DNA from: an uncultured bacterium
GTDB lineage: Bacteria > Patescibacteriota > Minisyncoccia > Moranbacterales > UBA2206
Assembly (NCBI GenBank): GCA_903841185.1
Contig: CAIMIV010000042.1
Location: forward strand, 11,319-75,318
Direction: 5' to 3'
Length of the DNA: 64,000 nucleotides
The notes under the pieces are model-generated. The model saw nothing but the letters and a program-made list of their open reading frames with translations, ran no database searches and had not been told where the DNA came from. Position 1 is the first letter of the stretch. The number at the start of each line of letters is the position of its first letter. Below, piece by piece: positions 46,584-63,986 of the stretch. The position numbers and the translations under genes were made by a program.

Positions 46584-49500
46584 ATGTCGCAAGCTGAGGA
46601 ATCATGCTCGATTTTTGAAAAATATAAACTGCACAAAAATTACTTCTTGTTGTTTGTAGTTTTTTGTGTCTTTGCCTTACTCAAATATCTTTCTCGATAC
46701 GAATCTTTGAGCAATTTTGTCATGGGGGCAATAGCCGTTTCCCCCTTCATCCTAACCACTGCTTTTCTCACTTGGGTCTATCTGAAGGATCGCAAGAACC
46801 ATGTCTTGTATAAGCTGATGATGAAGCAGGATGTTTTTCTCAAACTGGCTTTCAAATTGACTCTATCAGTTCTGGTGATATTGGTGGTTTTGTTTCCGGG
46901 CGATTGGAAACCGCTGTTGAATTTTTTTGATGTCGTCCGCCGGTCATTTTCCCTGGAGATGTATTTTCTTATTGCCTCATATCTCGCCGCCTTCATTCTC
47001 GCCGGCGAACTGATTTCTTTTTTTGTACGCTTGTATCAAATCAGTGTAGGCACCTATCATCACAAGATTTATCATGTTTTTAAAAAAACCCTCTACTCGA
47101 CTTTTTTTGTTTTTTTCCTGTTATTGCTTTTTTCCGTCCTGACTTATCCGCAAGCTTTCTATCCGATTACCGACGCTGTGTCCGATGTCATGTTCACCGT
47201 TAGTCAAGGTACCGTGGCTTTGTCTAAGTTATCCGGCGGGGAATTGCAAAGCAATACTTCGCTACTTAATCTGGCTAAGAATGCTTTTTCCAAAACTTCC
47301 TCCAATCTAGTCCGCAAGATGGATACAACTCAGTCGGATCTGGCCAAGTCTGTAGCACTCAGCCGGGATGCCCTTGTGCAATCGGTAGCGGACACTTCCA
47401 AAAATCTGACCGAATCGACTAATGGCAAAGTATCTTCCGATGGCGGCAAGATCAGTGGGGCGGTGGTTCTGTCCGGCAAAGGTTCTGACTTGACAGTGGA
47501 GGGCACCACTATCACTAAAGACATTCTACCGGATGCATCGTTGTCATATAATTTGGGCAGCGCAGGCAAGACTTGGAACACGGTGTATGCTCATCGCCTC
47601 ATCGGAGCGTCCCCGGTTTTCATCGGCACCGGTTCTTCCGCTCAAGGTTTGACTAATGATGGCGACCTAGTCGTGTCAAGCGATTTGGAAGTGCGAGGGA
47701 AAATTTATGCCACGCAAATTATCGGACCGGTTTCGAACACAAATAAATTTGAAGGCGGAATAATAACCAGTAGCATCGTTCCGGATGGATCAAATATCAA
47801 CCTCGGCAGCGCCAGCAATCATTTTTCCACGGTCTATGCCAACAGTCTCGTGGGTGTGCCTTTGAATTTTCTGCCGCTGATCGGTGGCACGCTTTCCGGT
47901 AATTTGAATTTAGGCAATCATAGTTTTACCACTTTCAATTCAGTCCTAGTGGACAATCTCAATGCGGATTTGTTGGATGGCAGTCAGGCCAGTGCTTTTG
48001 CCATGCTCAACGGCAGAAGTGGCGGACAAACAATCACTGGCGACACAGCGGCCGGCGGTAATCTGACCTTGTCTTCTACGAACAATGCTGCCAAAGGCAA
48101 AATAGTTTTTGGCAATTCTGCCTATGATGAAAAATCTAATCGATTGGGAATTGGCACAAACACTCCGGGCGCTCTGCTGCACCTGAACAATGCCACTGCC
48201 GGCCAAAAATCTTTGATCATCCAAGGTGCGCAAAACCAATCCGCTAATTTGGTGGAAATCTATGGCTATGATTCCGGTGGCATTCCGAATGGCCAGACTT
48301 TTGACAACGCGCCGGTTTTTGATGACGCGCATACCTTTGACAACGCACCGTCTTTGATCAATCTAACTTTTGATAATAATCCTTCTAGTCTATCTGCCAT
48401 CGCCAATTACAACAGCAGTTCAGCCTACAGCGCTTACAACAATTCGCATTCGTTGAAAATATATGCCTACAAAATAATCAACGGAATTAAAATTTTTAAT
48501 CCGACGCCGATTGTAACTGCATTGAATGACGACAACAGCGGTCGTACCTACACTATCAGCTGGTCTTGGTCGCCAGCCACGGATGCGGATGGTTATCGCA
48601 TCTTCAAATCCATTAGTGACGGCTCAGCTAATTTTGATAAATTCACGGATGTAGTCGGCACGAGTTTCTACGACACTGGCGCCACTGATTTTTCTCAAGA
48701 CGGAACCTTTGACGGACGCACGAGCTTGGCCTATGCGGTCAATTACAATACCGGTTCAAGCTACGCGGCTAACGGCAGTCAGCATCAATTAGTAGTGTAT
48801 GCCTATGAATTGCATAATGGCGTCAAAATTTTCAATAACGCGCCGTTGCACATCATCCCACAGATTGATTCCAGTGGTCGAAATTTTTCTCTGGATTATT
48901 CGTGGACAGCGGCCAGTGGCGCCGACGGTTATCGGGTGTTTGACTATGACAGCTCCGCCGGAATCTATGTCAGTCGCTATGCAGACATCACGACTACGAA
49001 CTTCCATGATGCCGGTCAAAATGATTTCACGAGCAGCGGAACATTCAATGGATCTACGAGCTATACCGACGGCCATGTAGTCAATTATGGCTCCGGTTCG
49101 AGCTACGTTGCCAATGGCCAAGAACACGGCGTACGCGTCTATGCATATAAAGAATATGCCGGCACCAAGATTTTCAATCCGGATTATGCGCAAGCCCAGT
49201 TTACTGACAATAACAGCGGTCAGCACTATACCATCGATTGGTCATGGACGGCGGCCGCGGGTGCCACCGGTTATCGCGTGTTTGATTTCGACAGTGGCAA
49301 CAGCATCAATTTTGATAAATATAGCGATGTCACTAATTCCAATTTCCAAGACGCCAGTCCCGGCAGCTTCACTCACACTGGTACTTTTGACGGCATGACG
49401 GAATATACCGGTTCGATGATGGCTTCTATTTCCAAAGACGGCATTATCGACGCCGCTGGTTTTTCCATCAATGGCGTGGCGCTTAGCGTTTCCGGCTGGG

Positions 49501-52500
49501 GGAATATTGGTGGCAATCTAGCCGATCAAACTGATTTGGTGTCAGCCTTGGGAGCCAAATTGAGTCTCACAGGCGGCACGATGAGTGGTATCTTGAATTT
49601 ACCCAGCAATGGTTTGATAGTCGGCACTACTCAGATAGTCGCCCTTAACGGAGCGGTGGGCATTGGCACAGCGACCCCGTCAGCCAGTTATCAATTGACC
49701 GTCAATGGCGATGTCAATGTGACTAACGGCCTGTTGCGTTTTTCCGGCACGCAGATCGGACTTAATAATTTGAAAAATGTCGCAGTCGGTTCGCCCGCGG
49801 TCAATCAAGTACTGGCGTTCAATGGCACCAATTGGGTCAATACCACCTTAAGCAGTGTTTCCGCGGGCAATGTCGTGTCTTTCTATTTGCAAACTCAAGC
49901 TGGTGACATTTCACCTTTCAAGCAATTGCAAGCTACTCCGGGCGCGGGTTCTGAGGTGGATGTGCATGCCACAGTCAGCAACAACCTGAGCAGTCCAACT
50001 TTGCTGGAAGAATATATCTCTTCCGCCGCGGGACTTGGTGGCAATCAAATTGATGGCGGGGAGTGGGAATTTGACACCTTCGGTTTCGTTTCCGATGCAA
50101 GCGGCGATTCGGAAATTCAAATCGATGTTTTTACGCGAGCTACCAACGGCACCGAGACCTATCTATTCACCGCCAATACCGGATCAATCACCGGCACTAC
50201 CGCTGATGCACAAGCGATGGCAGTCAATTCGACTCAATCAGCTTTCAGCATCGCACCCAGTGACCGTTTAGTGGTCAAATATTCGGCTAAAACGGATTTG
50301 CTCAGCGGAACAACAATCCATCTTTTGCATAACGGTCAAGATCATTATTCACATTTTCATACGCCAATGCTCACGCGCCATAATGATATGGCCGGTTTGC
50401 AAGGCGGAACCAATCAGCAATATTATCATCTAACATCTTCTGAATACACCGGGACAGGGACAGGGACTTTTGTGCGGCAATCTTCACCGGCTTTCACCGG
50501 CACAACGACCGGTATCACCGCAACTATGGTGGGGTTGGGGAATGTGCCGAATTTGGCGTTCAGCGGTTCCAATACGGGCGACAATGCCGTCAATTCTCTG
50601 TATAGTGGCTTGATTACTAATGCCACGCACACAGGTGACGCGACGGGCGCAAGCGCTTTGACCGTGGTGGGCATCAACGGCACGCAATTGTCAGCATTAG
50701 CGACCGGCATTTTGAAAAACACCACCACCACTGGCGTGCCGAGTATCGCCGTGGCGGGAGATTTTCCGACTTTGAATCAAAACACCTCCGGCACCGCCGC
50801 CGGACTTTCTGCTATATTGGTATCTACCAGTGGCGGTTCTGGCATTAACAATTCCGGCACTTTGACTTGGGGCACAGGTGGCACCTTGGGAACAAATGCT
50901 TTCACGAGCACAGCCTATGCGCCATTGGCTTCACCGACATTTACGGGAGACATAAATTTCCCTGGTTCTGGGGTTTGGAATTCGAGTGGCAACGTGGGGA
51001 TTGGGACGATTTCGCCAAACGCACTACTAGATATAAATCATATTGGTGCAATTGCTATTCCCGGCTTTAATATTGCGGCAACAGATGCAAACAATGCCTA
51101 TCAATTAAAAATCTTGGGCCACACAGGAGGGGTCTCTCATACACAAATTGTAACGGACAATTCCAATAGCAGATTAACAGTAATGGCAGGAGCGCAAAAT
51201 GACTTTGCTCCACGCATGTTCTTTATTGGTGCGCAAGATGCAACAACATCCTTGCGAGGTTGGGGAACATTTGATTATGGTTCAAATTTATATGATTTAG
51301 ATACTGCAGAGTTCCAAGTAAGACAGGTCTCCACTGGTGGGTTCACTACCATGTTCAGATCAGTTGGAAAAGCTGGGTCATTATTTCCTTCTGGAACAGT
51401 TGGAATAGGAAGTTCTGTCATATCTGTCGCCAAATTTTCGGTAGAAAATACCGGAACTACGGATTCTTTTTTAGTTAACGATGAGGCGAGTGACACAACG
51501 CCGTTTGTAATTAATACAGATGGTAACGTTGGTATTGGGAGGACAAGTCCGGGCTATAAATTAGATATTTCTACGCCAGGAAATTCTGATGCACAATTAC
51601 ATATTAATTCATCAAATCCTTATAGTGATACGGGAGGGTATATTAGTAGCGGAGCGGCGGCTAATCTAGGTTTGGCAGGAGGAACCGCACTTAGTGGTGG
51701 GGCATGGAAAGTTAAAACAACTACCGGAGCTTCACTTATAAATTTGGGTTCAGGCGCAATGACTTTTTATACAAATGACACAAGTGCTGCTACTCCCGGA
51801 GATATCTTGAGCCTGTCAGCCCGTATGAAAATAACCAATACCGGCAACGTCGGCATCGGGGCGACGAGTCCTCTATACAAATTTGATGTATCAAATGACG
51901 GAGTAGCGAAATCCTTGCTCCACTTTTCTCAGAGCGGAACGGACGTTGGTGGATGGTTAACATCTGTGGGTGACGGTAATTTTTATATGTCATCTGGCAT
52001 GGAATATGATGCGGGAGCTGGTGGCTGGATTCAAAAATCATCAAACGGAGTTGGCAATATCATTGGCGGTGATTCGCCAGGACTGTCATTTTACACGACA
52101 AGCGGAACGGCAGTTGGATCTGTTGCAACCCTTGCTGTACGTATGAGAATAGATACGAGTGGTAACGTCGGGATTGGAACGACGGCTCCATCAACTAATT
52201 TTGAAGTTTATAGTCCCACAGTGACAAATGGTATTGTTATCCCTTTGAGAGTTAATGGAAGAATTGGAAATACGAGCGGTCAAGATGGAGTGGGAATGGA
52301 TTTTAATGGCATTTGGGATTCTTCCGGATCTGCTTTTACATTGGGTAGAATTGTCGGCAGAGAATATGGTGGTTATAAAGGAGGTTTATCTTTTTTGGTT
52401 AACAATAATGGAGCTACTGCTCCCAATTCTGCAGTAATGTCCGAGGCAATGAGAATGGATAATGTCGGTAACGTGGGGATTGGGACATCGAGTCCTGTGG

Positions 52501-55500
52501 CGAGGTTAGATGTTTCGCCAACAGTTATTACCACCACTGACCTGAAGGGGATGAATAGTGGATTGGTCTATAACGGTGGATCTACTATGACGAATTATTA
52601 CGGCCATTACATTGCCACCCCATCCGGAACAGGAATCATTACAAATAAATATGCCTTAGTAACTGAAGCTGGAGCTGGCAACGTTGGCATCGGCACGACG
52701 AGTCCAACAAACATCTTGTCTCTCGGCAACGGGGCAGCGCAAAAATTTTGGATTGAAAACTCAGTCAGTGGAACTGTCGGTCGAGCCTTGACTGTCGCTG
52801 CTGGCGGGACTGTCGCTGGCGGGACTGACATTGCGGGTGGCAATCTGATTTTGCAATCCGGTCTTGGCACGGGCACTGGCGCTAGTGCAATTTCTTTTCA
52901 AACCGGCACAACTCTCACAACCGGCACAACTTTGCAGACAATGTCTACAAAGATGACGATTTTGGGGAATGGGAATGTGGGGATTGGAACGACGAGCCCG
53001 GCAACTTTAGCGCATGTGAATCTTTCATCGGCTGCGGTGGGGACAGCGTTATATTCTTCTAATTCTGCGCTGACCCTTTCTAATCAGGATAATTCCGTGT
53101 CAGCAGATTACGTGGTTGCTGATGGAACTGCTACGCCAGGGTATCGAGGAGTTATAAGAGGTATCAGGGCGCGTGGAACTTTGGCATCTCCCACTGTGCC
53201 AGTATTAAATGATATTGTCTTTTCAGTTTTGGGTGGTATTTATGATGGTGCATCGGTTTTAAATACGGCTGCCGTAGACCTTAAAGTTGATGGTACTGTG
53301 TCTTCTGGTGTAGCTCCGCAGAGAATATCTTTTAGTACAAAGACCGGCGGGAGTGGTGGATTTGTTGAAAGGCTGACAATAAAAAATGACGGACTTATCG
53401 GGATTGGCACGACGAGCCCGGCGAGTTCTTTGAATATTGCATCATCCTTAGTGAGCACTGCTAATTATGGAACTTTGTCGGTGGGATCTTCTCCATGGGA
53501 CGGATCAACTAGTGGTAAGTTTGTTGGAGGCAGTAGTGGCACCCTAATTGCGGTTAATGCTCCTAATGTTGCAGGACTTGGATTGATTGATCTCCAATCA
53601 TTCGGCGTCAGTAGATTCAGAGTGGATTCAACGTCTGGTGTTACGATTGGAAATGCCAGTGCGGGTGCACAAAACGGTACTCACATAAGTGACCTGATGA
53701 TTTACCCTACTAGCGCTATCAATCTGACGGCCGAAGGCAGTCCAAACCTGATTATGAATGCTAATTCGTTTACAATTACTGGTGGGTATGCTACGCAAAG
53801 ATTTAATTTATTTAACCAATCAACTATCACAGCTGTTTCAGCTTTAAACATTTCAACCGAAGCGGATACATTGAATATAGCCGGCGCACCAATTTCCGCT
53901 GGTTCGGCCACGATCGCCAAATCAATTGGACTGCGGATTTCCGCCGGGACCTCGGTCGCCGCGGGGGTGACGAACGCGTACGGTTTGTATGTTGATGCTC
54001 CAACTGGTGCGAGTAATAATTATGCAGCGGTATTTAATACCGGCAATGTGGGGATTGGGACGACGAGTCCCGGATATAAATTATCAGTGGCGACACCAGG
54101 AGTGACGGCTTCACAGATGCAGATTAATTCAGCCAATCCGGCGGATGATACGGGGATGTATCTGACTTCAGCAGCGTCTGGCAATGGATTTGTTTCGGCA
54201 GGGGCTGCTTATAATGGCAGCGCTTGGGTCGCGAAGTCTGCGACCGCTTGGTCATTTGGTGGCGGAGCGTCTGGTATCAGTTGGTCTTATGATACTGGAT
54301 TAACTGCAGGCAATACTTTTACACAATCGACACGATTGAAAATTGGCACGACAGGACTGATTAGTATAGGGACTGGCAATTTATTAGCTGGGCTGGACGT
54401 TCAAAATAGCATTACTGCTACTTCGGCAGTGGCTTATGGAACAAGGCTTCAGCAAACATTAACCGCGGCGGCTAACAATGATGCGCTTGATGCCGTTTAT
54501 ATTAATCCAACTTTTACAGATGGGGCGAATACAGGCGTGACACATAACGGATTAATCGTAGTAAGTGGCAATGTCGGTATCGGGACAACGACGCCGGCCT
54601 ATACACTGGATGTCAAAGCCGCCGGCACTGGCGTCATTGCTCGCTTCAATAATAATAACAGCACCGGATGCACAGTTGCTGATGGCGGAACGATCACTTG
54701 CACTTCCGATGTCAGGCTAAAAAAGAACATCAATGATTTGAATTATGGATTGAACGAAATCATGTCTTTGCGTCCGGTTGACTATAATTGGAGATATCAA
54801 AATGACAATGGCCAAAAATATCTAGGTTTCATCGCTCAAGAAGTGGAACAACTGTTGCCACAGTTAATTATGACAGACGCTAACGGCTACAAAGAACTTA
54901 ACACAATCGGGCTTATTCCAATCCTGACTAAATCCGTGCAAGAGCAGCAGACTGAAATTGGTGTGCAGACGCAATCAATTGCGTCTCTACAGATCAAGAC
55001 TGATAGCAACATCACCACTCTGACGGATCTGCAAAAATCAGTTGACACGCAATTGAATGTGGTGGGCAAGAGTTTGAATGTGATTAACACGCAGATCAGC
55101 GCCCAGGCGCAATCGATTGCGTCGCTGCAAGGCAAATTGGATGATCAGGAAACGAGATTGAAAGATCAAGAAGCTTTGTCAATTACTTTGCAAGCACAAA
55201 TTGCCAAATTGCAAGAACTGGTTAATCCGGATGCACTGGCATTGCTAAGCAGCAAACTGGATGCTATCTCAGAATTTATTACGATTTCTGACGGAAAATT
55301 TGATTTACTGCAAGGCACATTGAAAGCTAGTGGTGTGGAGACGGGCAAATTGGTGATTTCTGTTTCTGCGGGATCTGAAAACAACACTATCGGTGAAGCG
55401 GTTATTTGTCCGGCCGGTAAAAAAATAGACTCGACTATCCTCGCGGGAGGGACTGATTATAACAAATGTATTCTGGATGACGCAAGTTCTGATGGCAAGA

Positions 55501-55682
55501 GCGTGAAGGTGAAAGCTAGCGCGGTGACCAAGGATTCCAAAGTTTTCGTAACAGCTAAGACTGTTTCCGATAAGCCTTTGGCTGTTTCTGTGATTGAAGA
55601 CGGCAAGGGCTTTACAGTGGAAACCAAAACAGTAGTCAGTGAAGATCTGAAATTTGACTGGTGGATCGTAGGTGCAAAATAA
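46584..55682 (+). CDS. giant membrane-anchored cell-surface fibre protein with C-terminal phage tail-fibre-type intramolecular chaperone (peptidase S74) domain
   Basis: 3032 aa. Five to six N-terminal TM helices, three FN3-like repeats (W-S-W-xxA-DGYR-F), about 20 NVGIGT(T/S)SP repeats, TSDVRLKKNI...LRPVDYNW S74 autoproteolytic motif, and a coiled-coil tail. Confidence 0.7.
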   Translation: MSQAEESCSIFEKYKLHKNYFLLFVVFCVFALLKYLSRYESLSNFVMGAIAVSPFILTTAFLTWVYLKDRKNHVLYKLMMKQDVFLKLAFKLTLSVLVILVVLFPGDWKPLLNFFDVVRRSFSLEMYFLIASYLAAFILAGELISFFVRLYQISVGTYHHKIYHVFKKTLYSTFFVFFLLLLFSVLTYPQAFYPITDAVSDVMFTVSQGTVALSKLSGGELQSNTSLLNLAKNAFSKTSSNLVRKMDTTQSDLAKSVALSRDALVQSVADTSKNLTESTNGKVSSDGGKISGAVVLSGKGSDLTVEGTTITKDILPDASLSYNLGSAGKTWNTVYAHRLIGASPVFIGTGSSAQGLTNDGDLVVSSDLEVRGKIYATQIIGPVSNTNKFEGGIITSSIVPDGSNINLGSASNHFSTVYANSLVGVPLNFLPLIGGTLSGNLNLGNHSFTTFNSVLVDNLNADLLDGSQASAFAMLNGRSGGQTITGDTAAGGNLTLSSTNNAAKGKIVFGNSAYDEKSNRLGIGTNTPGALLHLNNATAGQKSLIIQGAQNQSANLVEIYGYDSGGIPNGQTFDNAPVFDDAHTFDNAPSLINLTFDNNPSSLSAIANYNSSSAYSAYNNSHSLKIYAYKIINGIKIFNPTPIVTALNDDNSGRTYTISWSWSPATDADGYRIFKSISDGSANFDKFTDVVGTSFYDTGATDFSQDGTFDGRTSLAYAVNYNTGSSYAANGSQHQLVVYAYELHNGVKIFNNAPLHIIPQIDSSGRNFSLDYSWTAASGADGYRVFDYDSSAGIYVSRYADITTTNFHDAGQNDFTSSGTFNGSTSYTDGHVVNYGSGSSYVANGQEHGVRVYAYKEYAGTKIFNPDYAQAQFTDNNSGQHYTIDWSWTAAAGATGYRVFDFDSGNSINFDKYSDVTNSNFQDASPGSFTHTGTFDGMTEYTGSMMASISKDGIIDAAGFSINGVALSVSGWGNIGGNLADQTDLVSALGAKLSLTGGTMSGILNLPSNGLIVGTTQIVALNGAVGIGTATPSASYQLTVNGDVNVTNGLLRFSGTQIGLNNLKNVAVGSPAVNQVLAFNGTNWVNTTLSSVSAGNVVSFYLQTQAGDISPFKQLQATPGAGSEVDVHATVSNNLSSPTLLEEYISSAAGLGGNQIDGGEWEFDTFGFVSDASGDSEIQIDVFTRATNGTETYLFTANTGSITGTTADAQAMAVNSTQSAFSIAPSDRLVVKYSAKTDLLSGTTIHLLHNGQDHYSHFHTPMLTRHNDMAGLQGGTNQQYYHLTSSEYTGTGTGTFVRQSSPAFTGTTTGITATMVGLGNVPNLAFSGSNTGDNAVNSLYSGLITNATHTGDATGASALTVVGINGTQLSALATGILKNTTTTGVPSIAVAGDFPTLNQNTSGTAAGLSAILVSTSGGSGINNSGTLTWGTGGTLGTNAFTSTAYAPLASPTFTGDINFPGSGVWNSSGNVGIGTISPNALLDINHIGAIAIPGFNIAATDANNAYQLKILGHTGGVSHTQIVTDNSNSRLTVMAGAQNDFAPRMFFIGAQDATTSLRGWGTFDYGSNLYDLDTAEFQVRQVSTGGFTTMFRSVGKAGSLFPSGTVGIGSSVISVAKFSVENTGTTDSFLVNDEASDTTPFVINTDGNVGIGRTSPGYKLDISTPGNSDAQLHINSSNPYSDTGGYISSGAAANLGLAGGTALSGGAWKVKTTTGASLINLGSGAMTFYTNDTSAATPGDILSLSARMKITNTGNVGIGATSPLYKFDVSNDGVAKSLLHFSQSGTDVGGWLTSVGDGNFYMSSGMEYDAGAGGWIQKSSNGVGNIIGGDSPGLSFYTTSGTAVGSVATLAVRMRIDTSGNVGIGTTAPSTNFEVYSPTVTNGIVIPLRVNGRIGNTSGQDGVGMDFNGIWDSSGSAFTLGRIVGREYGGYKGGLSFLVNNNGATAPNSAVMSEAMRMDNVGNVGIGTSSPVARLDVSPTVITTTDLKGMNSGLVYNGGSTMTNYYGHYIATPSGTGIITNKYALVTEAGAGNVGIGTTSPTNILSLGNGAAQKFWIENSVSGTVGRALTVAAGGTVAGGTDIAGGNLILQSGLGTGTGASAISFQTGTTLTTGTTLQTMSTKMTILGNGNVGIGTTSPATLAHVNLSSAAVGTALYSSNSALTLSNQDNSVSADYVVADGTATPGYRGVIRGIRARGTLASPTVPVLNDIVFSVLGGIYDGASVLNTAAVDLKVDGTVSSGVAPQRISFSTKTGGSGGFVERLTIKNDGLIGIGTTSPASSLNIASSLVSTANYGTLSVGSSPWDGSTSGKFVGGSSGTLIAVNAPNVAGLGLIDLQSFGVSRFRVDSTSGVTIGNASAGAQNGTHISDLMIYPTSAINLTAEGSPNLIMNANSFTITGGYATQRFNLFNQSTITAVSALNISTEADTLNIAGAPISAGSATIAKSIGLRISAGTSVAAGVTNAYGLYVDAPTGASNNYAAVFNTGNVGIGTTSPGYKLSVATPGVTASQMQINSANPADDTGMYLTSAASGNGFVSAGAAYNGSAWVAKSATAWSFGGGASGISWSYDTGLTAGNTFTQSTRLKIGTTGLISIGTGNLLAGLDVQNSITATSAVAYGTRLQQTLTAAANNDALDAVYINPTFTDGANTGVTHNGLIVVSGNVGIGTTTPAYTLDVKAAGTGVIARFNNNNSTGCTVADGGTITCTSDVRLKKNINDLNYGLNEIMSLRPVDYNWRYQNDNGQKYLGFIAQEVEQLLPQLIMTDANGYKELNTIGLIPILTKSVQEQQTEIGVQTQSIASLQIKTDSNITTLTDLQKSVDTQLNVVGKSLNVINTQISAQAQSIASLQGKLDDQETRLKDQEALSITLQAQIAKLQELVNPDALALLSSKLDAISEFITISDGKFDLLQGTLKASGVETGKLVISVSAGSENNTIGEAVICPAGKKIDSTILAGGTDYNKCILDDASSDGKSVKVKASAVTKDSKVFVTAKTVSDKPLAVSVIEDGKGFTVETKTVVSEDLKFDWWIVGAK

Positions 55683-55861: not shown

Positions 55862-55935
55862 GGGCCCTTAGCTCAGTTGGCTAGAGCGCCTCGTTTGCAC
55901 CGAGGAGGTCGGGAGTTCGAATCCCCCAGGGTCCA
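55862..55935 (+). tRNA. tRNA-Ala (anticodon UGC)
   Basis: Cloverleaf with acceptor GGGCCCU/AGGGUCC, anticodon loop uuUGCac and T-loop GTTCGAATC. Confidence 0.9.
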
Positions 55936-56065
55936 CACTTCGACTCATCTTGATTTACATCAAGATTCGCTCAGTGTAAACACCAGCCAATGAATATTCA
56001 TTGAGCTTGAGAAACAACACTGAGTCGAAGTACCATGAGCTTGTCGAATGGCAAGCGTAGTAACT

Positions 56066-56341
56066 ATGGAAATTATTGAAAAAGAGGGTCTCTGGTATGT
56101 TTATATAGCCAGAGCAAGAACAAATAAATACTACGTAGGAATCAGCAATAATGTTGAAAAAAGAATAGACAAGCACAATAGTGGGAACGGTTCCAATATG
56201 GCAAAGCAACAAGGACCATTTTGCTTGGTTTATAAATCTGGGTCATTTATAAACAAATCAGAAGCAAGAAAGAGAGAGGCTCAAATAAAAAAATGGAGTA
56301 GAGTTAAAAAAGAGAATCTCTTGAATGGAGAGTGGAAATAA
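56066..56341 (+). CDS. GIY-YIG nuclease superfamily protein (UPF0213/YhbQ-like)
   Basis: LWYVYIARARTNKYYVGISNNVEKRIDKHN...IKKWSR. Confidence 0.75.
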   Translation: MEIIEKEGLWYVYIARARTNKYYVGISNNVEKRIDKHNSGNGSNMAKQQGPFCLVYKSGSFINKSEARKREAQIKKWSRVKKENLLNGEWK

Positions 56342-56349
56342 AATAGCAC

Positions 56350-56431
56350 GGGCGTATAGCTCAGTTTCCGCCGGTAGGCGGACCAGCCTATGGCTGGGGT
56401 CGAAAAATGACGAGGCCTCTGGTTCGAGTCC
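56350..56431 (+). pseudogene. partial duplicate of tRNA-Ile with an internal 41-nt GC-hairpin insertion
   Basis: The first 19 nt are identical to tRNA-Ile (gggcgtatagctcagtt). Then comes tccgccggtaggcgga ccagcctatggctgg, then tgacgaggcctctggttcgagtcc identical to the tRNA-Ile 3' half. No 3' acceptor strand follows. Confidence 0.4.
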
Positions 56432-56460
56432 GAGAAAAGCAGTTCACAATATAAAATGTA

Positions 56461-56534
56461 GGGCGTATAGCTCAGTTGGTTAGAGCGCGTCACTGATAAT
56501 GACGAGGCCTCTGGTTCGAGTCCAGATATGCCCA
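56461..56534 (+). tRNA. tRNA-Ile (anticodon GAU)
   Basis: Cloverleaf with anticodon stem cguca/ugacg, loop cuGAUaa, T-loop GTTCGAGTC and acceptor gggcgua/uaugccc. Confidence 0.9.
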
Positions 56535-56661
56535 CCTATGTTTTTTGTTTATGTTGACAACATTATTTTTATAGTATACACTTATATATAGAAAAGCCTT
56601 CAGGGGCTTTTTAAAAAACCGTAAAAACGCTTTTAAGTAAAAAAGGCTTAAATAAAAGAAA

Positions 56662-59024: not shown

Positions 59025-59103
59025 CAATTGTTGGTTTGTTGACCTGGCTTAAATTTGTTGCTAAAATAAGATGGTGTTTAATCGGCCTAAAAAATAAATA
59101 GAA

Positions 59104-59664
59104 ATGGAAAAAAGCAATAAGATTGTCATTGGCCTCTTGGGAGAAAGTGGATCCGGCAAAGACACGGTGGCGAAATATCTGCACGAAAAATATGGCGCCA
59201 AGTTGATGCGTTTTGCGGATCCCATCAAAGAGACATTGAATATTTATTTTGAAAAAAGTTCCCGGGAGGATCAGCAATGGCTGGCCTTGGAATTCCGCAA
59301 GCGGTTTGGAGCAGACATTCTGTCACGCGCGCTGGCAAAAAAAATTGCCGATACGGACGGCATTATTGTGATTAATGGGATTCGTTTTTGGGAGGATTAT
59401 GATTTCGTAGAAAGCTTTGGGCATGGAAAAACTCTCTATATCACGGCTGATCAACAGTTGCGCTGGGAAAGAATCACTACGCGCCATGAAAAATCGGATG
59501 ACGTCATGAGCTTGGCACAATTTCAAGAGCTGGAAAGAGGGGAGACAGAAGTGCATATCCCGGAGATCGGGACGAAGGCCGATTGCATCATTTGCAATGA
59601 AAAAGATTTAGCCTTTTTGCTGCAAGAAACGGACGTGTTTATGCGCAGCGTGATGTCTCAATAA
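59104..59664 (+). CDS. P-loop nucleoside/nucleotide kinase family protein
   Basis: Walker A GLLGESGSGKDT. At 186 aa it fits a dNMP/dephospho-CoA-kinase-like fold. Confidence 0.5.
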   Translation: MEKSNKIVIGLLGESGSGKDTVAKYLHEKYGAKLMRFADPIKETLNIYFEKSSREDQQWLALEFRKRFGADILSRALAKKIADTDGIIVINGIRFWEDYDFVESFGHGKTLYITADQQLRWERITTRHEKSDDVMSLAQFQELERGETEVHIPEIGTKADCIICNEKDLAFLLQETDVFMRSVMSQ

Positions 59665-59767
59665 GACCATGAAATCCCTCGCTAAAAGAGGGATTTTTTG
59701 ACTAAAAAAGCGAAAAAGGGTACGCTTGAAAGACGCAGAAGTGCCGATAAAATTTAAGATAGTCAGA

Positions 59768-60325
59768 ATGAAAAAGCAAACTATTATTGCCGTGTTGGGG
59801 CTTCCCGGATCAGGAAAATCAGTGGTGATAGACTATTTGATAAAAAAGTATGGCTGGCCGAAGATCTATTTCGGTGAGGTGACTTTTGATGAAATGCGCA
59901 GACTGGGTTTGGAGGTTAATGAAAAAAATGAAAGGCGGGTGCGGGAAGGATTGCGCAAAAAATTTGGCGAATTGTGCTATGCCAAGCGAGTGGCAAAAAA
60001 GATTTTGCAATTGGGTTCGGCACCTATCATTTTGTTGGAAAGTATGTACTCTTGGCCGGAATATTTATTTTTGAAAAAGAAATTTGGAGAGCAATTCCAG
60101 ACTATCGCGGTCTATGCTGCGCCGGAAAAAAGATATGCTCGACTGAAGGAGAGAAAGGTGCGTCCGCTGACTCCCCAGGAAGCCCAAAGTCGAGACTATT
60201 CCCAGATTGAGAATCTGTCCCAGGCGGGACCCATCGCCATGGCGGATCAGCTGATAATCAATGAGAGTTCCAAGAGGAGTTTATATAGCCAAATTGACCA
60301 GCTGATCGTGGAAGAAAATAATTAA
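59768..60325 (+). CDS. P-loop nucleoside/nucleotide kinase family protein (paralogue)
   Basis: Walker A VLGLPGSGKS. Similar size and architecture to the preceding gene. Confidence 0.5.
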   Translation: MKKQTIIAVLGLPGSGKSVVIDYLIKKYGWPKIYFGEVTFDEMRRLGLEVNEKNERRVREGLRKKFGELCYAKRVAKKILQLGSAPIILLESMYSWPEYLFLKKKFGEQFQTIAVYAAPEKRYARLKERKVRPLTPQEAQSRDYSQIENLSQAGPIAMADQLIINESSKRSLYSQIDQLIVEENN

Positions 60326-60404
60326 ATATAAGGTTTTTGACTAAGATGGTTAAAAAATAGTATAATGGAATAACTATAAACAGTAAGACTAGAGGCATAA
60401 AAAT

Positions 60405-61382
60405 ATGATAAACAATGAAGTTAAGGGTGGAATAGAAGGAGGCATTAATTATCTCCCTTTTGGTGAGAGAATTCCTGATTTGCAATATCAAGAATTGCTT
60501 AAAAAAATTAAAACAATAGGAAAAGATAAGGTACCTATTCATGCAAGACTTGATGAAAATGCTAATTCCGGTCATCAGAATTCAAAAGAAATAACAGGAG
60601 CTATGTTGCAATTTGAAATGAATAATGGTTTTCCTGTTTTGACAGAGCGTGATTTGAGTAAATCATTTTATGGATCAATAGGCGAACTGGTGGCGTTTTT
60701 AAATGGACAAAGCACATTGAGTGGTTTGAAAGAATATGGTTGCCCGGAAGTTTTTTGGAGAGATTGGGTTACAAAGGAAAAATGTGCAATATTTGGTTTG
60801 CCAGAGGGTGATTTGGGCGATGGATCCTATGGAGCTTCTCTGGGGTGTTTTCAATCCGCAAAAGGAGAATTTGATCAAATCAGTGCTGTTCAAAGGCAAA
60901 TGGAAAAAATGCCGTTTCTAAGAACTCACGTTCTGACGACATGGAATCCACCGCTATCAATGGGGGATGAAGAACAAGGCTTCAAGCGCAAAGTTGTTGT
61001 CGCTCCTTGTCACGGCAATTTCATTCATTTCGTACTTTTTGATGAGCAAAAAGAATTAGAAATGACACATACACAGCGATCAGCTGACGTTCCGGTAGGC
61101 TTGCAGTTCAATCTTATTGAATGGTCCGCTCTCGGACTAATGGTGGCACATCTGTTGGGTTATAAATTTACTAAGTATACTCACTTCCTATCCAATCCGC
61201 ATTATTATGACGTTCAAGCCGAATCTGTGGATAAAATTTTGGCCATTGAGCCAAGTCCTTTTCCAACGGTGACACTGAAACCAAATAGGAAAGTTACAAG
61301 GCTCCAGGATTTTCGTAAAGAGGATTTTGTGCTTGAAGATTATGATCCAAATCCTTGGTTTAAAATTCCGACACCGGTATAG
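60405..61382 (+). CDS. thymidylate synthase family protein (divergent ThyA-like)
   Basis: TTWNPP, catalytic VVAPCHG, QRSADVPVGLQFNLIEWSALGLMVAHLL and YDPNPWFKIPTPV align with the ThyA core, after an extended N-terminus. Confidence 0.7.
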   Translation: MINNEVKGGIEGGINYLPFGERIPDLQYQELLKKIKTIGKDKVPIHARLDENANSGHQNSKEITGAMLQFEMNNGFPVLTERDLSKSFYGSIGELVAFLNGQSTLSGLKEYGCPEVFWRDWVTKEKCAIFGLPEGDLGDGSYGASLGCFQSAKGEFDQISAVQRQMEKMPFLRTHVLTTWNPPLSMGDEEQGFKRKVVVAPCHGNFIHFVLFDEQKELEMTHTQRSADVPVGLQFNLIEWSALGLMVAHLLGYKFTKYTHFLSNPHYYDVQAESVDKILAIEPSPFPTVTLKPNRKVTRLQDFRKEDFVLEDYDPNPWFKIPTPV

Positions 61383-61409
61383 GTCAAATAATTTACAAAT
61401 ATTATTGAT

Positions 61410-61850
61410 ATGAATAAAAGCGGATTAGACTTAAAGAATGCTCGCAAGGAGGAGCAGATTGCAGTGATGAAAAAAATTATTTCTGACGGAGTGTGTCCTT
61501 TTTGTCATGATTTTGTTGATAAAGAAAAACCAGCTTATCATTCCAATCCTGTTTTAGTAGAGACTGATTTTTGGGTGGTAACGAGAAATGCTTGGCCGTA
61601 TGAGCACACAAAAGAACATTTAATCCTTGTGATTAAACGCCATATTCTAACTCCCGAGGAGATGAAAAGTGAAGAGATTTTGGATTTATGGAATATTATT
61701 AAAAAAGTCAAGCAAGAACTTAAGATAACTCATAGTACTTTCTTGATGCGTTCGGATAGCACTGGTATGACAGGTGCAACCGTTCAGCATTTGCATGCCC
61801 AATTGGTTGTTGCTGGTGGCAAGGAACCGGTCATTACGAGGGTCGGCTAG
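61410..61850 (+). CDS. HIT family hydrolase
   Basis: Histidine triad VQHLHAQLV and an upstream CPFC zinc motif. Confidence 0.65.
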   Translation: MNKSGLDLKNARKEEQIAVMKKIISDGVCPFCHDFVDKEKPAYHSNPVLVETDFWVVTRNAWPYEHTKEHLILVIKRHILTPEEMKSEEILDLWNIIKKVKQELKITHSTFLMRSDSTGMTGATVQHLHAQLVVAGGKEPVITRVG

Positions 61851-61915
61851 GATTGCAAGTTTATGAATTTAAAAAGCCCGTCGGTAAAACCGATGGGCTT
61901 TTTTTGCATCCCGTG

Positions 61916-62770
61916 CTATTTAACCAAAATAAGTTCAATCCCGGCATTCTTGAGAATATCTTCAGCATCAGAAAGGGAATAACCACTTTCGTAATAAACT
62001 TTTTTGATGCCAGCTTCTGCTACCAGTTTGGCGCAAGTTGGGCAAGGAAACGTGGTAACATACAAATTAGTGTTATTTAGACTGATTCCGTCTCTAGCAG
62101 CTTTTCCGACTAGGGATGCTTCTGCATGAATAGAATTGGATAAATGATGATTTTCTCCGGCATCAAAGCACATTCTCAAGTCTCCATAAACAGCCATGTT
62201 TTCTTGGGTGGGCACATGGCGATTGAATGCCGAAAGTATGATGGAGCCTTTTGTGTCTGTGATGAGAGCACCAATTTGCCTCCACCAATTGGCACTTTTT
62301 TCTTTTAGCGCCTTGGCTTTGCTCATGAGCTCTGCATGTGCTTTTTCCTGTGTAATGATTCTGTCGCTGGAAACTTCCAGCTCTTGGGTGGACACCGGCT
62401 TGTTCCATCTCAAGAAGACATTTTCAAATTCAACTTTTTCATGCGGAAGGAATTCTTTTGCAAACCAATGAGACACATCCTCATCTGGCATAACAATAAC
62501 AATATTTTCCTCTTTTGCGTTCTTCAAATCACTTAAATTATCTAATGTCAATAAATCAACTTTTTTTAAGATAGCTGATTTTTTAATGAAATGATAAATA
62601 GTCTCTTGATCAATTGACCGTAAATCTCTTTTTAGGTTTTCAAATTTGTCCCATTTTTTCAGAATGGTGTCATCCAGAATATAAAGATGATCTGGATATT
62701 TTTTGAATAATTCTAGGTATTTAATGTGAATAACAGGAACCAAAGCGATTAAGATTTTTTTTTCAGACAT
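61916..62770 (-). CDS. dCMP/cytidine deaminase domain protein with ~140-aa N-terminal extension
   Basis: C-terminal zinc motifs HAEASLV and PCPTCAKLV. The N-terminal half has no recognisable motif. Confidence 0.65.
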   Translation of the reverse strand: MSEKKILIALVPVIHIKYLELFKKYPDHLYILDDTILKKWDKFENLKRDLRSIDQETIYHFIKKSAILKKVDLLTLDNLSDLKNAKEENIVIVMPDEDVSHWFAKEFLPHEKVEFENVFLRWNKPVSTQELEVSSDRIITQEKAHAELMSKAKALKEKSANWWRQIGALITDTKGSIILSAFNRHVPTQENMAVYGDLRMCFDAGENHHLSNSIHAEASLVGKAARDGISLNNTNLYVTTFPCPTCAKLVAEAGIKKVYYESGYSLSDAEDILKNAGIELILVK

Positions 62771-62787
62771 CCGTGTGATATAAGAAA

Positions 62788-63375
62788 TTATAGCTTATTG
62801 TTGTATAAGAAATTTTCTATTGATTTTTGTAATTCTTTTGCCAGATCTTCACCTCCTTTAATGGTTAGTAATCTAATTCGTGCAGTAGTGGAAGTTGTTG
62901 ATTGCGGCTTCAAGTTGATAATTTTTTTACAGAACTTGCTGTGTTCTTCTTTTACATCTTCAAAAAAACTCTTGTCCTTCTTATTGGATGCCGTGGATTC
63001 TGATATGACAAGAATATCTGGTTTGATAGTCCTAATCAATTTTCCATGATCTGTTTTTGATTCTTTCATGACAATCAAATCGACATGTTTCAAATGGGAG
63101 ATCATCTTGACCCTTTCTTTTTCCGGAACTATAGGACGATTAGGACCCTTGCGATATTTCACTACTTCATCAGTATCAACAGCCACAATTAACACGTCTC
63201 CAAGCTTTTTGGCTTTTTGAAGATATTGAGCGTGTCCTTCATGAATAAGATCCCACACGCCTTGTGTTAATACGATTTTGTAATTATTCTTCTTGAGAAT
63301 GGTTGCTATTTTGCCTATATCTTTTGTGGGAATAAGTCTTCCACTTCCCAAAATACCTGATATTGTAGTATTCAT
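62788..63375 (-). CDS. cytidylyltransferase-like nucleotidyltransferase (RfaE domain II / TagD-like)
   Basis: TQGVWDLIHEGHAQYL (HxGH) and NRPIVPEKERVKMISHLKHVDLIV. Confidence 0.6.
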   Translation of the reverse strand: MNTTISGILGSGRLIPTKDIGKIATILKKNNYKIVLTQGVWDLIHEGHAQYLQKAKKLGDVLIVAVDTDEVVKYRKGPNRPIVPEKERVKMISHLKHVDLIVMKESKTDHGKLIRTIKPDILVISESTASNKKDKSFFEDVKEEHSKFCKKIINLKPQSTTSTTARIRLLTIKGGEDLAKELQKSIENFLYNNKL

Positions 63376-63512
63376 AAGCGCTTGCAGTTATCATTTTTTT
63401 GTATAGTTATACTAGCACTTAGATATAATATTGGCAATACATTACCTTTTTGGTATAATAAATCAATAGACTTATTATACAACAGGTTTAATAACAAAGA
63501 TTAAGAAATAAT

Positions 63513-63986
63513 ATGATTTCACTTATCGTAGCGGTTGGAAAAAATAGGGCAATTGGACGTAATAACCAGTTGCTGTGGAACATTCCCGAGGACATGGCTC
63601 ATTTCAAAAAGATTACTACCGGCCACACGGTGATTATGGGGGACAGAACTTATCTTTCCATCGGCAAACCGTTGCCGAATCGAAAAAATATTGTTGTGAC
63701 ATTGAACAAAGATTTTGTGGCGGCTGGTTGTGAGGTGAGATTTGATTTGGATGAGGTTTTGCGAGAATATAAAAATAGTGCTGAAGAAGTTTTTATCATT
63801 GGCGGAGGAATAATTTATAAACTAGCTTTGCCAATGGTGGATAAATTGTACCTGACGGTGGTGGACGACGCTCCGGCAGATGCAGACACCTTCTTCCCGG
63901 ACTATGCCGAGTTTAGTCAGGTTATCAAGGAGGAGCAGGCGGATAATGGAGAGTATAAATTTTCCTTTCTAGAATTAACGAAATGA
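63513..63986 (+). CDS. folA: dihydrofolate reductase
   Basis: MISLIVAVGKNRAIGRNNQLLWNIPEDMAHFKKIT and VIMGDRTY. Confidence 0.85.
   Translation: MISLIVAVGKNRAIGRNNQLLWNIPEDMAHFKKITTGHTVIMGDRTYLSIGKPLPNRKNIVVTLNKDFVAAGCEVRFDLDEVLREYKNSAEEVFIIGGGIIYKLALPMVDKLYLTVVDDAPADADTFFPDYAEFSQVIKEEQADNGEYKFSFLELTK

What the first reader, a model, noticed from the sequence alone, without database searches (positions are those of the whole stretch)
59104..63986. Clustered nucleotide-metabolism genes with divergent ThyA-like enzyme and a dCMP-deaminase fusion
Two paralogous P-loop kinases, a ThyA-family protein with an extended N-terminus and substitutions in the conserved LYQRSCD block, a HIT hydrolase, a dCMP deaminase with an unknown 140-aa N-domain, an RfaE-II-like nucleotidyltransferase and folA sit together. 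This is either a compact dTMP-synthesis module or a pyrimidine hypermodification pathway, such as the hydroxymethyl-pyrimidine type with kinase steps seen in phages.
Basis: inference. Interest (0 to 1): 0.5.

Follow-up and report, generated by a model that had tools for sequence, protein, structure and literature searches.

The report
Patescibacterial thymidylate-synthesis gene cluster with extras
This is the ordinary gene set a tiny (CPR/Patescibacteria) bacterium uses to make the DNA building block dTMP, not a DNA-modification pathway, but it always travels with two unexplained helper genes and an unusual fused deaminase.

Summary
The window is a Patescibacteria (Moraniibacteriota-like) chromosome, with secE-nusG-rplK-rplA just upstream.

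The ThyA-like protein belongs to a large Patescibacteria-specific ThyA subfamily. It keeps every catalytic and dUMP-specifying residue: Cys146, His147, Arg166, Ser167, Asp169, Asn177, Tyr94, Glu58, Trp80/83 and the C-terminal Ile/Val. It sits with DHFR here, and with dUTPase, SHMT, Tmk or FolD in relatives. That makes it a housekeeping thymidylate cycle. The hydroxymethyl/hypermodification reading is not supported.

Three things are not ordinary:
- In 48 of 48 species-level genomes with enough flank, NTase→deaminase fusion | HIT←ThyA is an invariant block. DHFR moves around it.
- The whole ThyA clade has lost two of the four phosphate-binding arginines (R21, R127').

The two kinases are a lineage-specific addition (13/48).

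Verdict: a new variant of a known module, of moderate interest.

The parts
59104..59664 (+). K1: P-loop nucleotide-monophosphate-kinase-like protein (186 aa). A lineage-specific addition to the cluster.
   Evidence: PF21448 DNMK 6e-11. phrog_139 dNMP kinase 7e-25. Best solved relatives are UPF0200/AdkA-like 3lw7 and 3h0k. Present beside the cluster in 13 of 48 genomes.
59726..60325 (+). K2: a paralogous P-loop kinase-like protein (199 aa, TTG start).
   Evidence: AAA_18/AAA_17. 25% identical to K1, E 1e-11. Best solved relative 3lw7. Weak match to the kinase-like region of the anti-phage dCTP deaminase models.
60405..61382 (+). ThyA: a divergent, Patescibacteria-specific thymidylate synthase subfamily (325 aa).
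   Evidence: PF00303 6e-47. 33% identical to E. coli ThyA, 26% to SPO1 gp29, 18% to T4 gp42. Catalytic and specificity residues are invariant in 115 clade members; R21 and R127 are lost. Best solved relatives are canonical ThyA.
61410..61850 (+). HIT-superfamily nucleotide hydrolase/transferase (146 aa), always immediately downstream of thyA.
   Evidence: PF01230 above its cut-off. The family is invariant at CxxC, H44, H70, H78, R114 and TGATVxHLH(A)Q/H. Only 98 homologues, from CPR-type sources. Linked to ThyA in 48 of 48 genomes.
61916..62350 (-). dCMP-deaminase domain (residues 141-284) of the fusion protein.
   Evidence: PF00383 3e-17. HAE and PCxxC are invariant. Best solved relatives are dCMP deaminases 4p9c, 2hvv, 1vq2 and 2w4l.
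62351..62770 (-). N-terminal domain (residues 1-140) of the fusion: a cytidylyltransferase-fold, probably nucleotide-binding, domain with HxGY in place of HxGH.
62788..63375 (-). Cytidylyltransferase-like nucleotidyltransferase (195 aa), co-directional with the deaminase fusion and 18 bp upstream of it.
   Evidence: PF01467 1.8e-19; TIGR02199 at 109 bits, below its cut-off of 181.5. Best solved relative is human ethanolamine-phosphate cytidylyltransferase 3elb, 3e-20, with HxGH and the STT motif aligned. Fused to the deaminase protein in P0420. Linked in 48 of 48 genomes.
63513..63986 (+). Dihydrofolate reductase (157 aa). A dUTPase gene follows 9 bp later, just beyond the window.
   Evidence: PF00186 2.7e-52. 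dUTPase follows in L003 and L004. DHFR is linked in 46 of 48 genomes.

Best explanation
This is the housekeeping thymidylate-synthesis locus of a Patescibacteria (CPR) bacterium.

Inferred from homology and conserved residues:
1. The deaminase domain converts dCMP to dUMP. The dUTPase just past the window's end does the same from dUTP.
2. ThyA reductively methylates dUMP with 5,10-methylene-THF, giving dTMP and dihydrofolate.
3. DHFR regenerates THF. SHMT, which is adjacent in relatives, recharges it.
4. K1 and K2 are dNMP-kinase-like enzymes added in this lineage. They probably phosphorylate dTMP or other salvaged dNMPs. A canonical Tmk sits beside the cluster in some relatives.

Shown by comparative data: HIT, the free-standing NTase and the NTase-fold N-domain of the deaminase are obligate companions of ThyA and the deaminase across the phylum.

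Inferred, low confidence:
- The N-domain is a nucleotide-binding module that pairs with the NTase, as the tandem cytidylyltransferase domains of ECT pair.
- NTase plus HIT act upstream of the deaminase on cytosine nucleotides. HIT chemistry always releases an NMP, so together they could supply or gate dCMP.
For: - Domain calls for all seven proteins.
- ThyA residues: E58, W80, Y94, R126, C146, H147, R166, S167, D169, G173, N177 and Y209 are invariant in 115 of 115 clade members; W83 in 113 of 115; the C-terminus is Ile/Val. T4 gp42 has Asp at position 177.
- The PHROG family ranking mirrors E. coli ThyA, not gp29 or gp42.
- Position 177 and His147 determine dUMP versus dCMP specificity (PMC8670742).
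- Context: secE-nusG-rplK-rplA upstream; dUTPase and gatB downstream.
- Relatives carry SHMT, dUTPase, Tmk, MazG, NDK and FolD around the same core.
- In 48 species genomes: ThyA 48, HIT 48, NTase 48, DHFR 46, SHMT 23, dUTPase 21, K1/K2 13. The order NTase+ deaminase+ HIT- ThyA- is fixed while DHFR changes sides.
- The deaminase domain has HAE/PCxxC, and its best solved relatives are dCMP deaminases.
- The N-domain has a cytidylyltransferase fold, occurs only as a fusion, and is once fused to the NTase as well.
- A natural ThyA lacking R127' is an active thymidylate synthase (PMC6005164).
Against: - Nothing was assayed.
- ThyA scores below every NCBIfam equivalog cut-off (105.6 against 108.35 for TIGR03284).
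- ThyA lacks two of the four canonical phosphate-binding arginines throughout the clade, which goes beyond any natural precedent found (PMC6005164). An altered substrate is therefore not excluded.
- Whether the genome has a second thyA or a thyX was not tested.
- The roles proposed for HIT, the NTase and the N-domain rest on linkage and fold only.
- The N-domain shows no significant sequence similarity to the neighbouring NTase.
- The HIT protein cannot be assigned to a branch.
Confidence: 0.8

Rival explanations
1. Pyrimidine hypermodification pathway. The ThyA homologue is a dUMP or dCMP hydroxymethylase, and the kinases phosphorylate the modified nucleotide or the hydroxymethyl base, as in SPO1, T4 or M6/ViI-type phages.
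For: The gene types match the phage pre-replicative pathway: a ThyA homologue, a dCMP deaminase and dNMP-kinase-like proteins (PMC8989533). The ThyA is divergent and lacks two phosphate-binding arginines. SPO1 gp29 also has a non-Arg residue (Gln) at position 127.
Against: - Asn177 and His147 are invariant, so the substrate is not dCMP (PMC8670742).
- W80, W83, Y94 and the C-terminal residue are retained. By established ThyA enzymology these favour hydride transfer over hydration.
- DHFR and SHMT linkage implies that DHF is produced.
- phrog_5131, the gp29 type, gives only 43 bits against 456 for gp29.
- No 5-HMUDK, aGPT-Pplase or glycosyltransferase is present.
- The context is a cellular chromosome, and no viral contigs match.
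- The kinases are missing from 35 of 48 related clusters.
Confidence: 0.03
2. An anti-phage dNTP-depletion system of the dCTP-deaminase type, here split into kinase-like and deaminase genes.
For: K1, K2 and the deaminase each hit the anti-phage dCTP deaminase models: NF041025 and PADLOC PDLC02373 at 35, 30 and 82 bits.
Against: - Scores are far below the curated cut-off (77.9 against 400).
- The domains lie on separate genes, on opposite strands, with ThyA and HIT between them.
- The deaminase's own N-domain has an NTase fold, not a kinase fold.
- The locus is conserved next to ribosomal genes and is linked to ThyA and DHFR in 48 of 48 genomes. That is unlike a mobile defence island.
Confidence: 0.02
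3. HIT and the NTase are unrelated neighbours. For example, the NTase could make a CDP- or ADP-activated envelope precursor and HIT could be a general nucleotide housekeeping hydrolase. They would be kept beside thyA and the deaminase only by inherited gene order, and the N-domain would be merely an oligomerisation or allosteric appendage.
For: - Gene order is generally conservative in these small genomes; rplK and nusG are also nearby in 34 of 48.
- The NTase's closest characterised relatives act on phospho-alcohols and sugar phosphates.
- No direct evidence of shared chemistry was obtained.
Against: - The tetrad is intact in 48 of 48 genomes, down to 35% ThyA identity, while DHFR, SHMT, dUTPase and the ribosomal genes rearrange around it.
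- One lineage fuses the NTase, the N-domain and the deaminase into a single polypeptide.
- The N-domain has the same fold as the NTase and is never found without the deaminase.
Confidence: 0.15

Closest known systems
Canonical thymidylate cycle loci (thyA-folA, with glyA, dut, tmk and dCMP deaminase), as in many bacteria and in phage T4 (td-frd)
   Same: ThyA, DHFR, a dCMP deaminase and dUTPase are clustered. All catalytic ThyA residues are conserved, and DHFR is clearly canonical.
   Different: A HIT protein and a cytidylyltransferase-like NTase are obligate members. The deaminase carries an extra NTase-fold domain. ThyA is a separate subfamily with three insertions and an N-terminal extension.
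VAAP-clade ThyA of Vibrio parahaemolyticus (PMC6005164)
   Same: Natural replacement of R127' and the K48-to-R change, in an enzyme shown to be an active thymidylate synthase with a raised Km.
   Different: Here R21 is lost as well, so two of four arginines are gone in all 115 members. Four clade-invariant basic residues (R22, H46, K126, R195) sit in clade-specific insertions. No biochemistry exists.
Phage pre-replicative hydroxymethyl-pyrimidine pathways (SPO1 gp29 dUMP hydroxymethylase, T4 gp42 dCMP hydroxymethylase, with a dCMP deaminase and the gp1 dNMP kinase; PMC8989533)
   Same: The same protein families occur together: a ThyA homologue, a dCMP deaminase and a dNMP-kinase-like protein.
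   Different: Asn177 and His147 are retained. Identity is 26% to gp29 and 18% to gp42, against 33% to E. coli ThyA. DHFR and SHMT are linked. No downstream modification enzymes are present. The context is cellular and housekeeping.
Human ethanolamine-phosphate cytidylyltransferase (ECT/Pcyt2; 3elb, 4xsv), with tandem cytidylyltransferase domains
   Different: The second domain here has HxGY, shows no detectable sequence similarity, and is followed by a dCMP deaminase. The substrate is unknown.
Stand-alone and bifunctional dCMP deaminases (T4 Cd 1vq2, cyanophage S-TIM5 4p9c, S. mutans 2hvv, PBCV-1 bi-DCD 7fh4, human DCTD 2w4l)
   Same: The catalytic domain fold and the zinc motifs HAE and PCxxC.
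   Different: None has an N-terminal NTase-fold domain. Foldseek hits cover only half of the model, with TMq about 0.4.
Anti-phage dCTP deaminase (NF041025 / PADLOC dCTPase)
   Same: It shares a UPF0200-like kinase domain type and a deaminase core with K1/K2 and the deaminase.
   Different: That system is a single polypeptide in a defence context. Here the genes are separate, the scores are far below the cut-offs, and the locus is housekeeping.

Membership tests
Thymidylate synthase ThyA (EC 2.1.1.45, PF00303) | Matches the family profile above the curated threshold | tested here: met
   PF00303 scores 160.4 bits against a cut-off of 24.3. However, the protein is below all NCBIfam equivalog cut-offs, the best being TIGR03284 at 105.6 against 108.35.
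Thymidylate synthase ThyA (EC 2.1.1.45, PF00303) | Catalytic Cys146 with His147, Arg166, Ser167, Asp169, Tyr94 and Glu58 | tested here: met
   All are invariant in 115 of 115 clade members, including the window protein.
Thymidylate synthase ThyA (EC 2.1.1.45, PF00303) | Asn177, giving dUMP rather than dCMP specificity | tested here: met
   Asn in 115 of 115. T4 gp42 has Asp at this position. Its role is stated in PMC8670742.
Thymidylate synthase ThyA (EC 2.1.1.45, PF00303) | Folate-positioning Trp80 and Trp83, and a C-terminal hydrophobic residue that closes the site | tested here: met
   W80 in 115 of 115 and W83 in 113 of 115. The C-terminus is Ile, Val or Asn.
Thymidylate synthase ThyA (EC 2.1.1.45, PF00303) | Four phosphate-binding arginines (R21, R126', R127', R166) | tested here: not met
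   R126 and R166 are invariant. R127 is Thr in 114 of 115. At the R21 position the six commonest residues (G, N, D, K, A, S; 104 of 115) include no Arg. Loss of R127' alone is compatible with activity (PMC6005164).
Thymidylate synthase ThyA (EC 2.1.1.45, PF00303) | Converts dUMP and CH2-THF into dTMP and DHF | not testable with these tools
   Needs an enzyme assay or complementation of a thyA mutant.
dCMP / dUMP hydroxymethylases of phages (T4 gp42, SPO1 gp29) | Asp at position 177 (dCMP type), or membership of the gp29-type family | tested here: not met
   Position 177 is Asn. phrog_5131 gives 43 bits against 456 for gp29. Identity is 18% to gp42 and 26% to gp29.
Thymidine hypermodification cluster (PMC8989533) | 5-HMUDK, aGPT-Pplase/AADT, dTTPase/dTMPase or glycosyltransferases beside the ThyA homologue, in a viral genome | tested here: not met
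   None of the seven proteins hits such a family. The flanks are ribosomal genes and gatB. No viral contig encodes the fusion.
dCMP deaminase (PF00383, CDA fold) | Zinc motifs HAE and PCxxC, with dCMP deaminases as the closest relatives | tested here: met
   H214, E216, C242 and C245 are invariant. The top solved relatives are all dCMP deaminases.
Anti-phage dCTP deaminase (NF041025) | A single protein with a kinase-like N-domain and a deaminase, scoring above the curated cut-off | tested here: not met
   77.9 bits against a cut-off of 400. The N-domain has an NTase fold, not a kinase fold. The kinases are separate genes.
Cytidylyltransferase-like nucleotidyltransferases (PF01467), applied to the free-standing NTase | HxGH motif, a C-terminal (S/T)TT phosphate-binding motif, and a profile match | tested here: met
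   PF01467 scores 70.7 bits against a cut-off of 21. HEGH and STTSTTARI align with the ECT motifs. It is not an RfaE-II equivalog: 109 against 181.5.
Cytidylyltransferase-like nucleotidyltransferases (PF01467), applied to the N-domain of the deaminase | The same fold with an intact HxGH catalytic motif | tested here: inconclusive
HIT superfamily (PF01230) | Histidine triad HxHxH/Q with a nucleophilic middle His | tested here: met
   23.2 bits against a cut-off of 21.5. HLH(A)Q/H is invariant. The branch (Hint, Fhit or GalT) cannot be assigned.
Dihydrofolate reductase (PF00186) | Full-length profile match | tested here: met
   177.1 bits, covering residues 1-156 of 157.
T4 gp1-type dNMP kinase (PF21448 / phrog_139) | Full-length similarity to characterised dNMP kinases | tested here: inconclusive
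   For K1, PF21448 covers only residues 9-71, but phrog_139 covers residues 2-170 at 7e-25. K2 is weaker, at 7.7e-8. The best solved relatives are uncharacterised UPF0200 proteins.

The most novel reading that the evidence does not exclude
The invariant tetrad (NTase, NTase-fold-deaminase, ThyA lacking two phosphate-binding arginines, HIT) could be a previously unknown route to thymidylate that uses nucleotidyl-transfer chemistry. It has two versions.

(a) NTase plus HIT form a two-step dCTP-to-dCMP supply line that is physically docked to the deaminase.

(b) More radically, the pyrimidine stays attached to a carrier: dCDP-X to dUDP-X to dTDP-X. The deaminase's N-domain and the opened ThyA phosphate pocket would accommodate the diester, and HIT would release the product.
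Probability: 0.12. Interest if true: 0.7.

Novelty: new variant of a known kind. Interest (0 to 1): 0.4.

Why it matters
Thymidylate synthesis is among the best-understood and most drug-targeted pathways. A phylum-wide variant would therefore matter in three ways.

First, ThyA here has lost half of its phosphate-binding arginines. Second, the dCMP deaminase carries a nucleotidyltransferase-fold domain. Third, a HIT protein and a cytidylyltransferase-like enzyme are inseparable companions. Together these point to unrecognised steps or regulation in how dUMP or dCMP is supplied.

How dCMP is generated for the dCMP-deaminase route is poorly defined in many organisms. Patescibacteria lack de novo nucleotide synthesis and depend on salvage. 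This locus offers concrete, clonable candidates to test.

It also corrects a tempting over-interpretation: the locus is not a DNA hypermodification system.

Tried and rejected
- **Sequence searches for the N-domain.** A Pfam scan of all 22 members and a PDB profile search found nothing significant. Only structure gave a lead.
- **N-domain against the neighbouring NTase.** hhalign was insignificant, with 13 aligned columns. A recent duplication cannot be claimed.
- **Long contigs of the window organism.** The look-up of encoding contigs on the exact ThyA returned only short contigs. The DHFR look-up supplied the downstream genes instead.
- **afdb50 fold library.** Unavailable.
- **Viral contigs.** No relative of the fusion.
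- **Phage records.** The best ThyA match is about 31% identical, and all are annotated as thymidylate synthase.
- **Defence-system reading.** Considered because of the NF041025 and PADLOC hits, and rejected on scores and architecture.
- **HIT branch assignment through Pfam.** Inconclusive.
- **Literature.** Searches for a described Patescibacteria thymidylate module, for a HIT-ThyA link, or for the deaminase fusion found nothing relevant.
- **A second thyA or thyX, or tmk, elsewhere in the genome.** Could not be checked. Only the 64-kb window and flanks of 10 kb or less were accessible. The window itself has no second ThyA, SHMT, Tmk or NDK.


Full report
**Observation.** The region 59104-63986 holds seven ORFs exactly as described.

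| Gene | Coordinates | Strand | Main evidence |
|---|---|---|---|
| K1 | 59104-59664 | + | DNMK/AAA_18; phage dNMP-kinase family phrog_139, 7e-25 |
| K2 | 59726-60325 | + | AAA_17/18 |
| ThyA homologue | 60405-61382 | + | PF00303, 6e-47 |
| HIT | 61410-61850 | + | PF01230 |
| Deaminase fusion | 61916-62770 | - | dCMP_cyt_deam_1 only in residues 144-261 |
| NTase | 62788-63375 | - | CTP_transf_like, RfaE-II-like |
| DHFR | 63513-63986 | + | PF00186 |

K1 and K2 are distant paralogues, 25% identical at E 1e-11.

**Organism and setting.** Immediately upstream lie secE, nusG, rplK and rplA, two tRNAs and a 3032-aa ORF. Homologues of ThyA, the deaminase and HIT come almost only from Patescibacteria/CPR metagenome bins: Moraniibacteriota, Paceibacterota and Parcubacteria. 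Beyond the window's end, the same contig continues with dUTPase 9 bp after DHFR, then gatB. This is a cellular chromosome, not a phage or an island.

**The ThyA homologue.** It is 33% identical to E. coli ThyA, 26% to SPO1 gp29 (dUMP hydroxymethylase) and 18% to T4 gp42 (dCMP hydroxymethylase). Its best solved relatives are canonical ThyA enzymes.

Across 115 full-length clade members:
- E58, W80, Y94, R126, C146, H147, R166, S167, D169, G173, N177 and Y209 are invariant.
- W83 is present in 113 of 115.
- The C-terminal residue is Ile or Val in 103 of 115, and Asn in the rest.

Position 177 and His147 set dUMP versus dCMP specificity (PMC8670742), and T4 gp42 has Asp there. The window protein ranks the PHROG families 160 > 5682 > 5131 > 3676, as E. 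coli ThyA does. The gp29-type family phrog_5131 gives only 43 bits, against 456 for gp29 itself. No phage protein is more than about 31% identical.

**What is unusual about this ThyA.**
- It falls below every NCBIfam equivalog cut-off.
- It has an N-terminal extension and three insertions.
- Two of the four phosphate-binding arginines are lost clade-wide. R127 is Thr in 114 of 115. At the R21 position the six commonest residues (104 of 115) include no Arg. K48 is Arg in all 115.

The Vibrio VAAP-clade ThyA lacks R127' and has K48R, yet it is an active enzyme with a raised Km. [quoted passage not shown] The clade here goes one step further. Four clade-invariant basic residues (R22, H46, K126, R195) lie in the clade-specific segments and might compensate. 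That is untested.

**Gene linkage.** In five relatives with 50-69% identical ThyA, the core SHMT | ThyA-HIT | deaminase fusion-NTase | DHFR recurs. The neighbours vary among dUTPase, Tmk, MazG, NDK, FolD and an extra small deaminase.

A scan of species-representative genomes found 404 genomes that encode the fusion. Counts among the 48 fetched loci with at least 4.5 kb on both sides:

| Gene | Loci with it (of 48) |
|---|---|
| ThyA | 48 |
| HIT | 48 |
| NTase | 48 |
| DHFR | 46 |
| rplK / nusG | 34 |
| SHMT | 23 |
| dUTPase | 21 |
| K1 / K2 | 13 |
| Tmk | 2 |

The order and orientation NTase+ deaminase+ HIT- ThyA- is fixed in all 48, down to 35% ThyA identity, while DHFR switches sides. A complete thymidylate cycle (ThyA, DHFR, SHMT) with dUMP suppliers is what a canonical reductive ThyA needs. 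A hydroxymethylase yields THF and has no need for DHFR; this last point rests on established enzymology.

**The deaminase fusion.** The C-terminal domain has invariant HAE and PCxxC. Its best sequence and structure matches are dCMP deaminases: S-TIM5, S. mutans, T4 Cd, PBCV-1 and human DCTD.

An exhaustive profile search found 549 representative clusters, nearly all 275-300 aa fusions. The two shortest hits inspected are fragments that run into the start of the deaminase domain. One protein, P0420, joins a CTP_transf_like NTase, the N-domain and the deaminase in a single chain. No solved structure has this architecture.

**NTase, HIT and the kinases.**
- The NTase has intact HxGH and (S/T)TT motifs. 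It is closest to human ethanolamine-phosphate cytidylyltransferase (3e-20), HldC and TagD, but it is not an RfaE-II equivalog.
- The HIT family is small, with 98 homologues. It is invariant at CxxC, three further histidines, R114 and TGATVxHLH(A)Q/H. It cannot be assigned to the Hint, Fhit or GalT branch.
- K1 and K2 resemble archaeal UPF0200/AdkA-like proteins and phage dNMP kinases. They are absent from most related clusters.

**Mechanism.** The following steps are inferred from homology and conserved residues:
1. dCMP is converted to dUMP by the deaminase, and dUTP to dUMP by dUTPase.
2. dUMP is converted to dTMP by ThyA.
3. DHF is converted to THF by DHFR.
4. THF is converted to CH2-THF by SHMT.
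5. dNMP phosphorylation is by K1/K2 in this lineage.

Comparative data show that HIT and the NTase belong to the same functional unit as ThyA and the deaminase.

With low confidence, I infer that the N-domain binds a nucleotide and pairs with the NTase, as the tandem domains of ECT pair. I also infer that NTase plus HIT process cytosine nucleotides upstream of the deaminase, because HIT enzymes release NMPs.

**Rivals.**
- Hypermodification is rejected on residues, context and the missing partner genes (PMC8989533).
- The anti-phage dCTP-deaminase resemblance is only shared domains at low scores.
- Mere inherited synteny for HIT and the NTase is possible. It is weakened by the invariant tetrad amid rearrangements and by the triple fusion.

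**Novelty.** The module is a known kind. The Patescibacteria-wide variant was not found described in the literature searched. The variant consists of the obligate HIT and NTase partners, the NTase-fold domain on the deaminase, and a ThyA lacking two phosphate-binding arginines.

**Limits.** There is no biochemistry. No whole-genome check for thyX or a second thyA was possible. No structural model of this ThyA was made.

Noticed in passing
window 46584-55682 (+): A giant 3032-aa ORF with many 'GNVGIGT(T/S)SP'-type repeats. By eye, its C-terminal stretch resembles the intramolecular-chaperone (Peptidase_S74-like) domain of tail-spike or endosialidase proteins. It is probably a huge surface protein. 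A neighbour in L011 carries Peptidase_S74.
   Followed up: no
window 55862-56536: tRNA-Ala(TGC) and tRNA-Ile(GAT) are the pair usually found in rRNA operon spacers. Here they stand alone, with no rRNA detected in the window. A small ORF at 56048-56341 separates them; by eye it looks like a GIY-YIG/UPF0213 nuclease.
   Followed up: no
L005 2304-5855, L007 2152-5568, L011 1-1803, L012 1-773: The isoleucyl-tRNA synthetase of several relatives (1138-1183 aa) has a histidine-phosphatase domain (PF00300, His_Phos_1) listed between its two tRNA-synt_1 hits. This is an unusual insertion or fusion.
   Followed up: no
L007 13305-14060: A CofE-like F420_ligase (PF01996) gene lies directly next to DHFR in one relative. 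It could be a folate-polyglutamylation analogue.
   Followed up: no
L005 12926-13543; L011 6493-6957: A second, divergent HIT paralogue sits inside the thymidylate cluster of two relatives: 31% and 26% identity to the window HIT by tblastn.
   Followed up: partly
L013 6425-6919 and 12820-13635: One relative has an additional stand-alone 164-aa deaminase beside thyA and a FolD (THF_DHG_CYH) gene nearby. This reinforces the folate and one-carbon theme.
   Followed up: no
P0420 (469 aa; not in the window): A natural triple fusion: cytidylyltransferase-like NTase, the N-domain, then the dCMP deaminase. Only one representative was seen. Its genomic context was not examined.
   Followed up: partly
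L024, L026, L028, L042, L047, L061, L079 and many 'Saccharibacteria' titles: Several species-representative MAGs that carry this Patescibacteria-specific fusion are titled Bdellovibrionales, Gammaproteobacteria, Pseudomonadales or Saccharibacteria. These are probably automated taxonomic mislabels.
   Followed up: no
window 60337-60366, 63431-63459, 63437-63409, 59039-59067: Strong sigma-70-like consensus matches (10-11 of 12) lie just upstream of thyA, folA, the NTase gene and K1. They are consistent with separate transcription units, including a divergent NTase/folA promoter region. These are consensus matches only.
   Followed up: no
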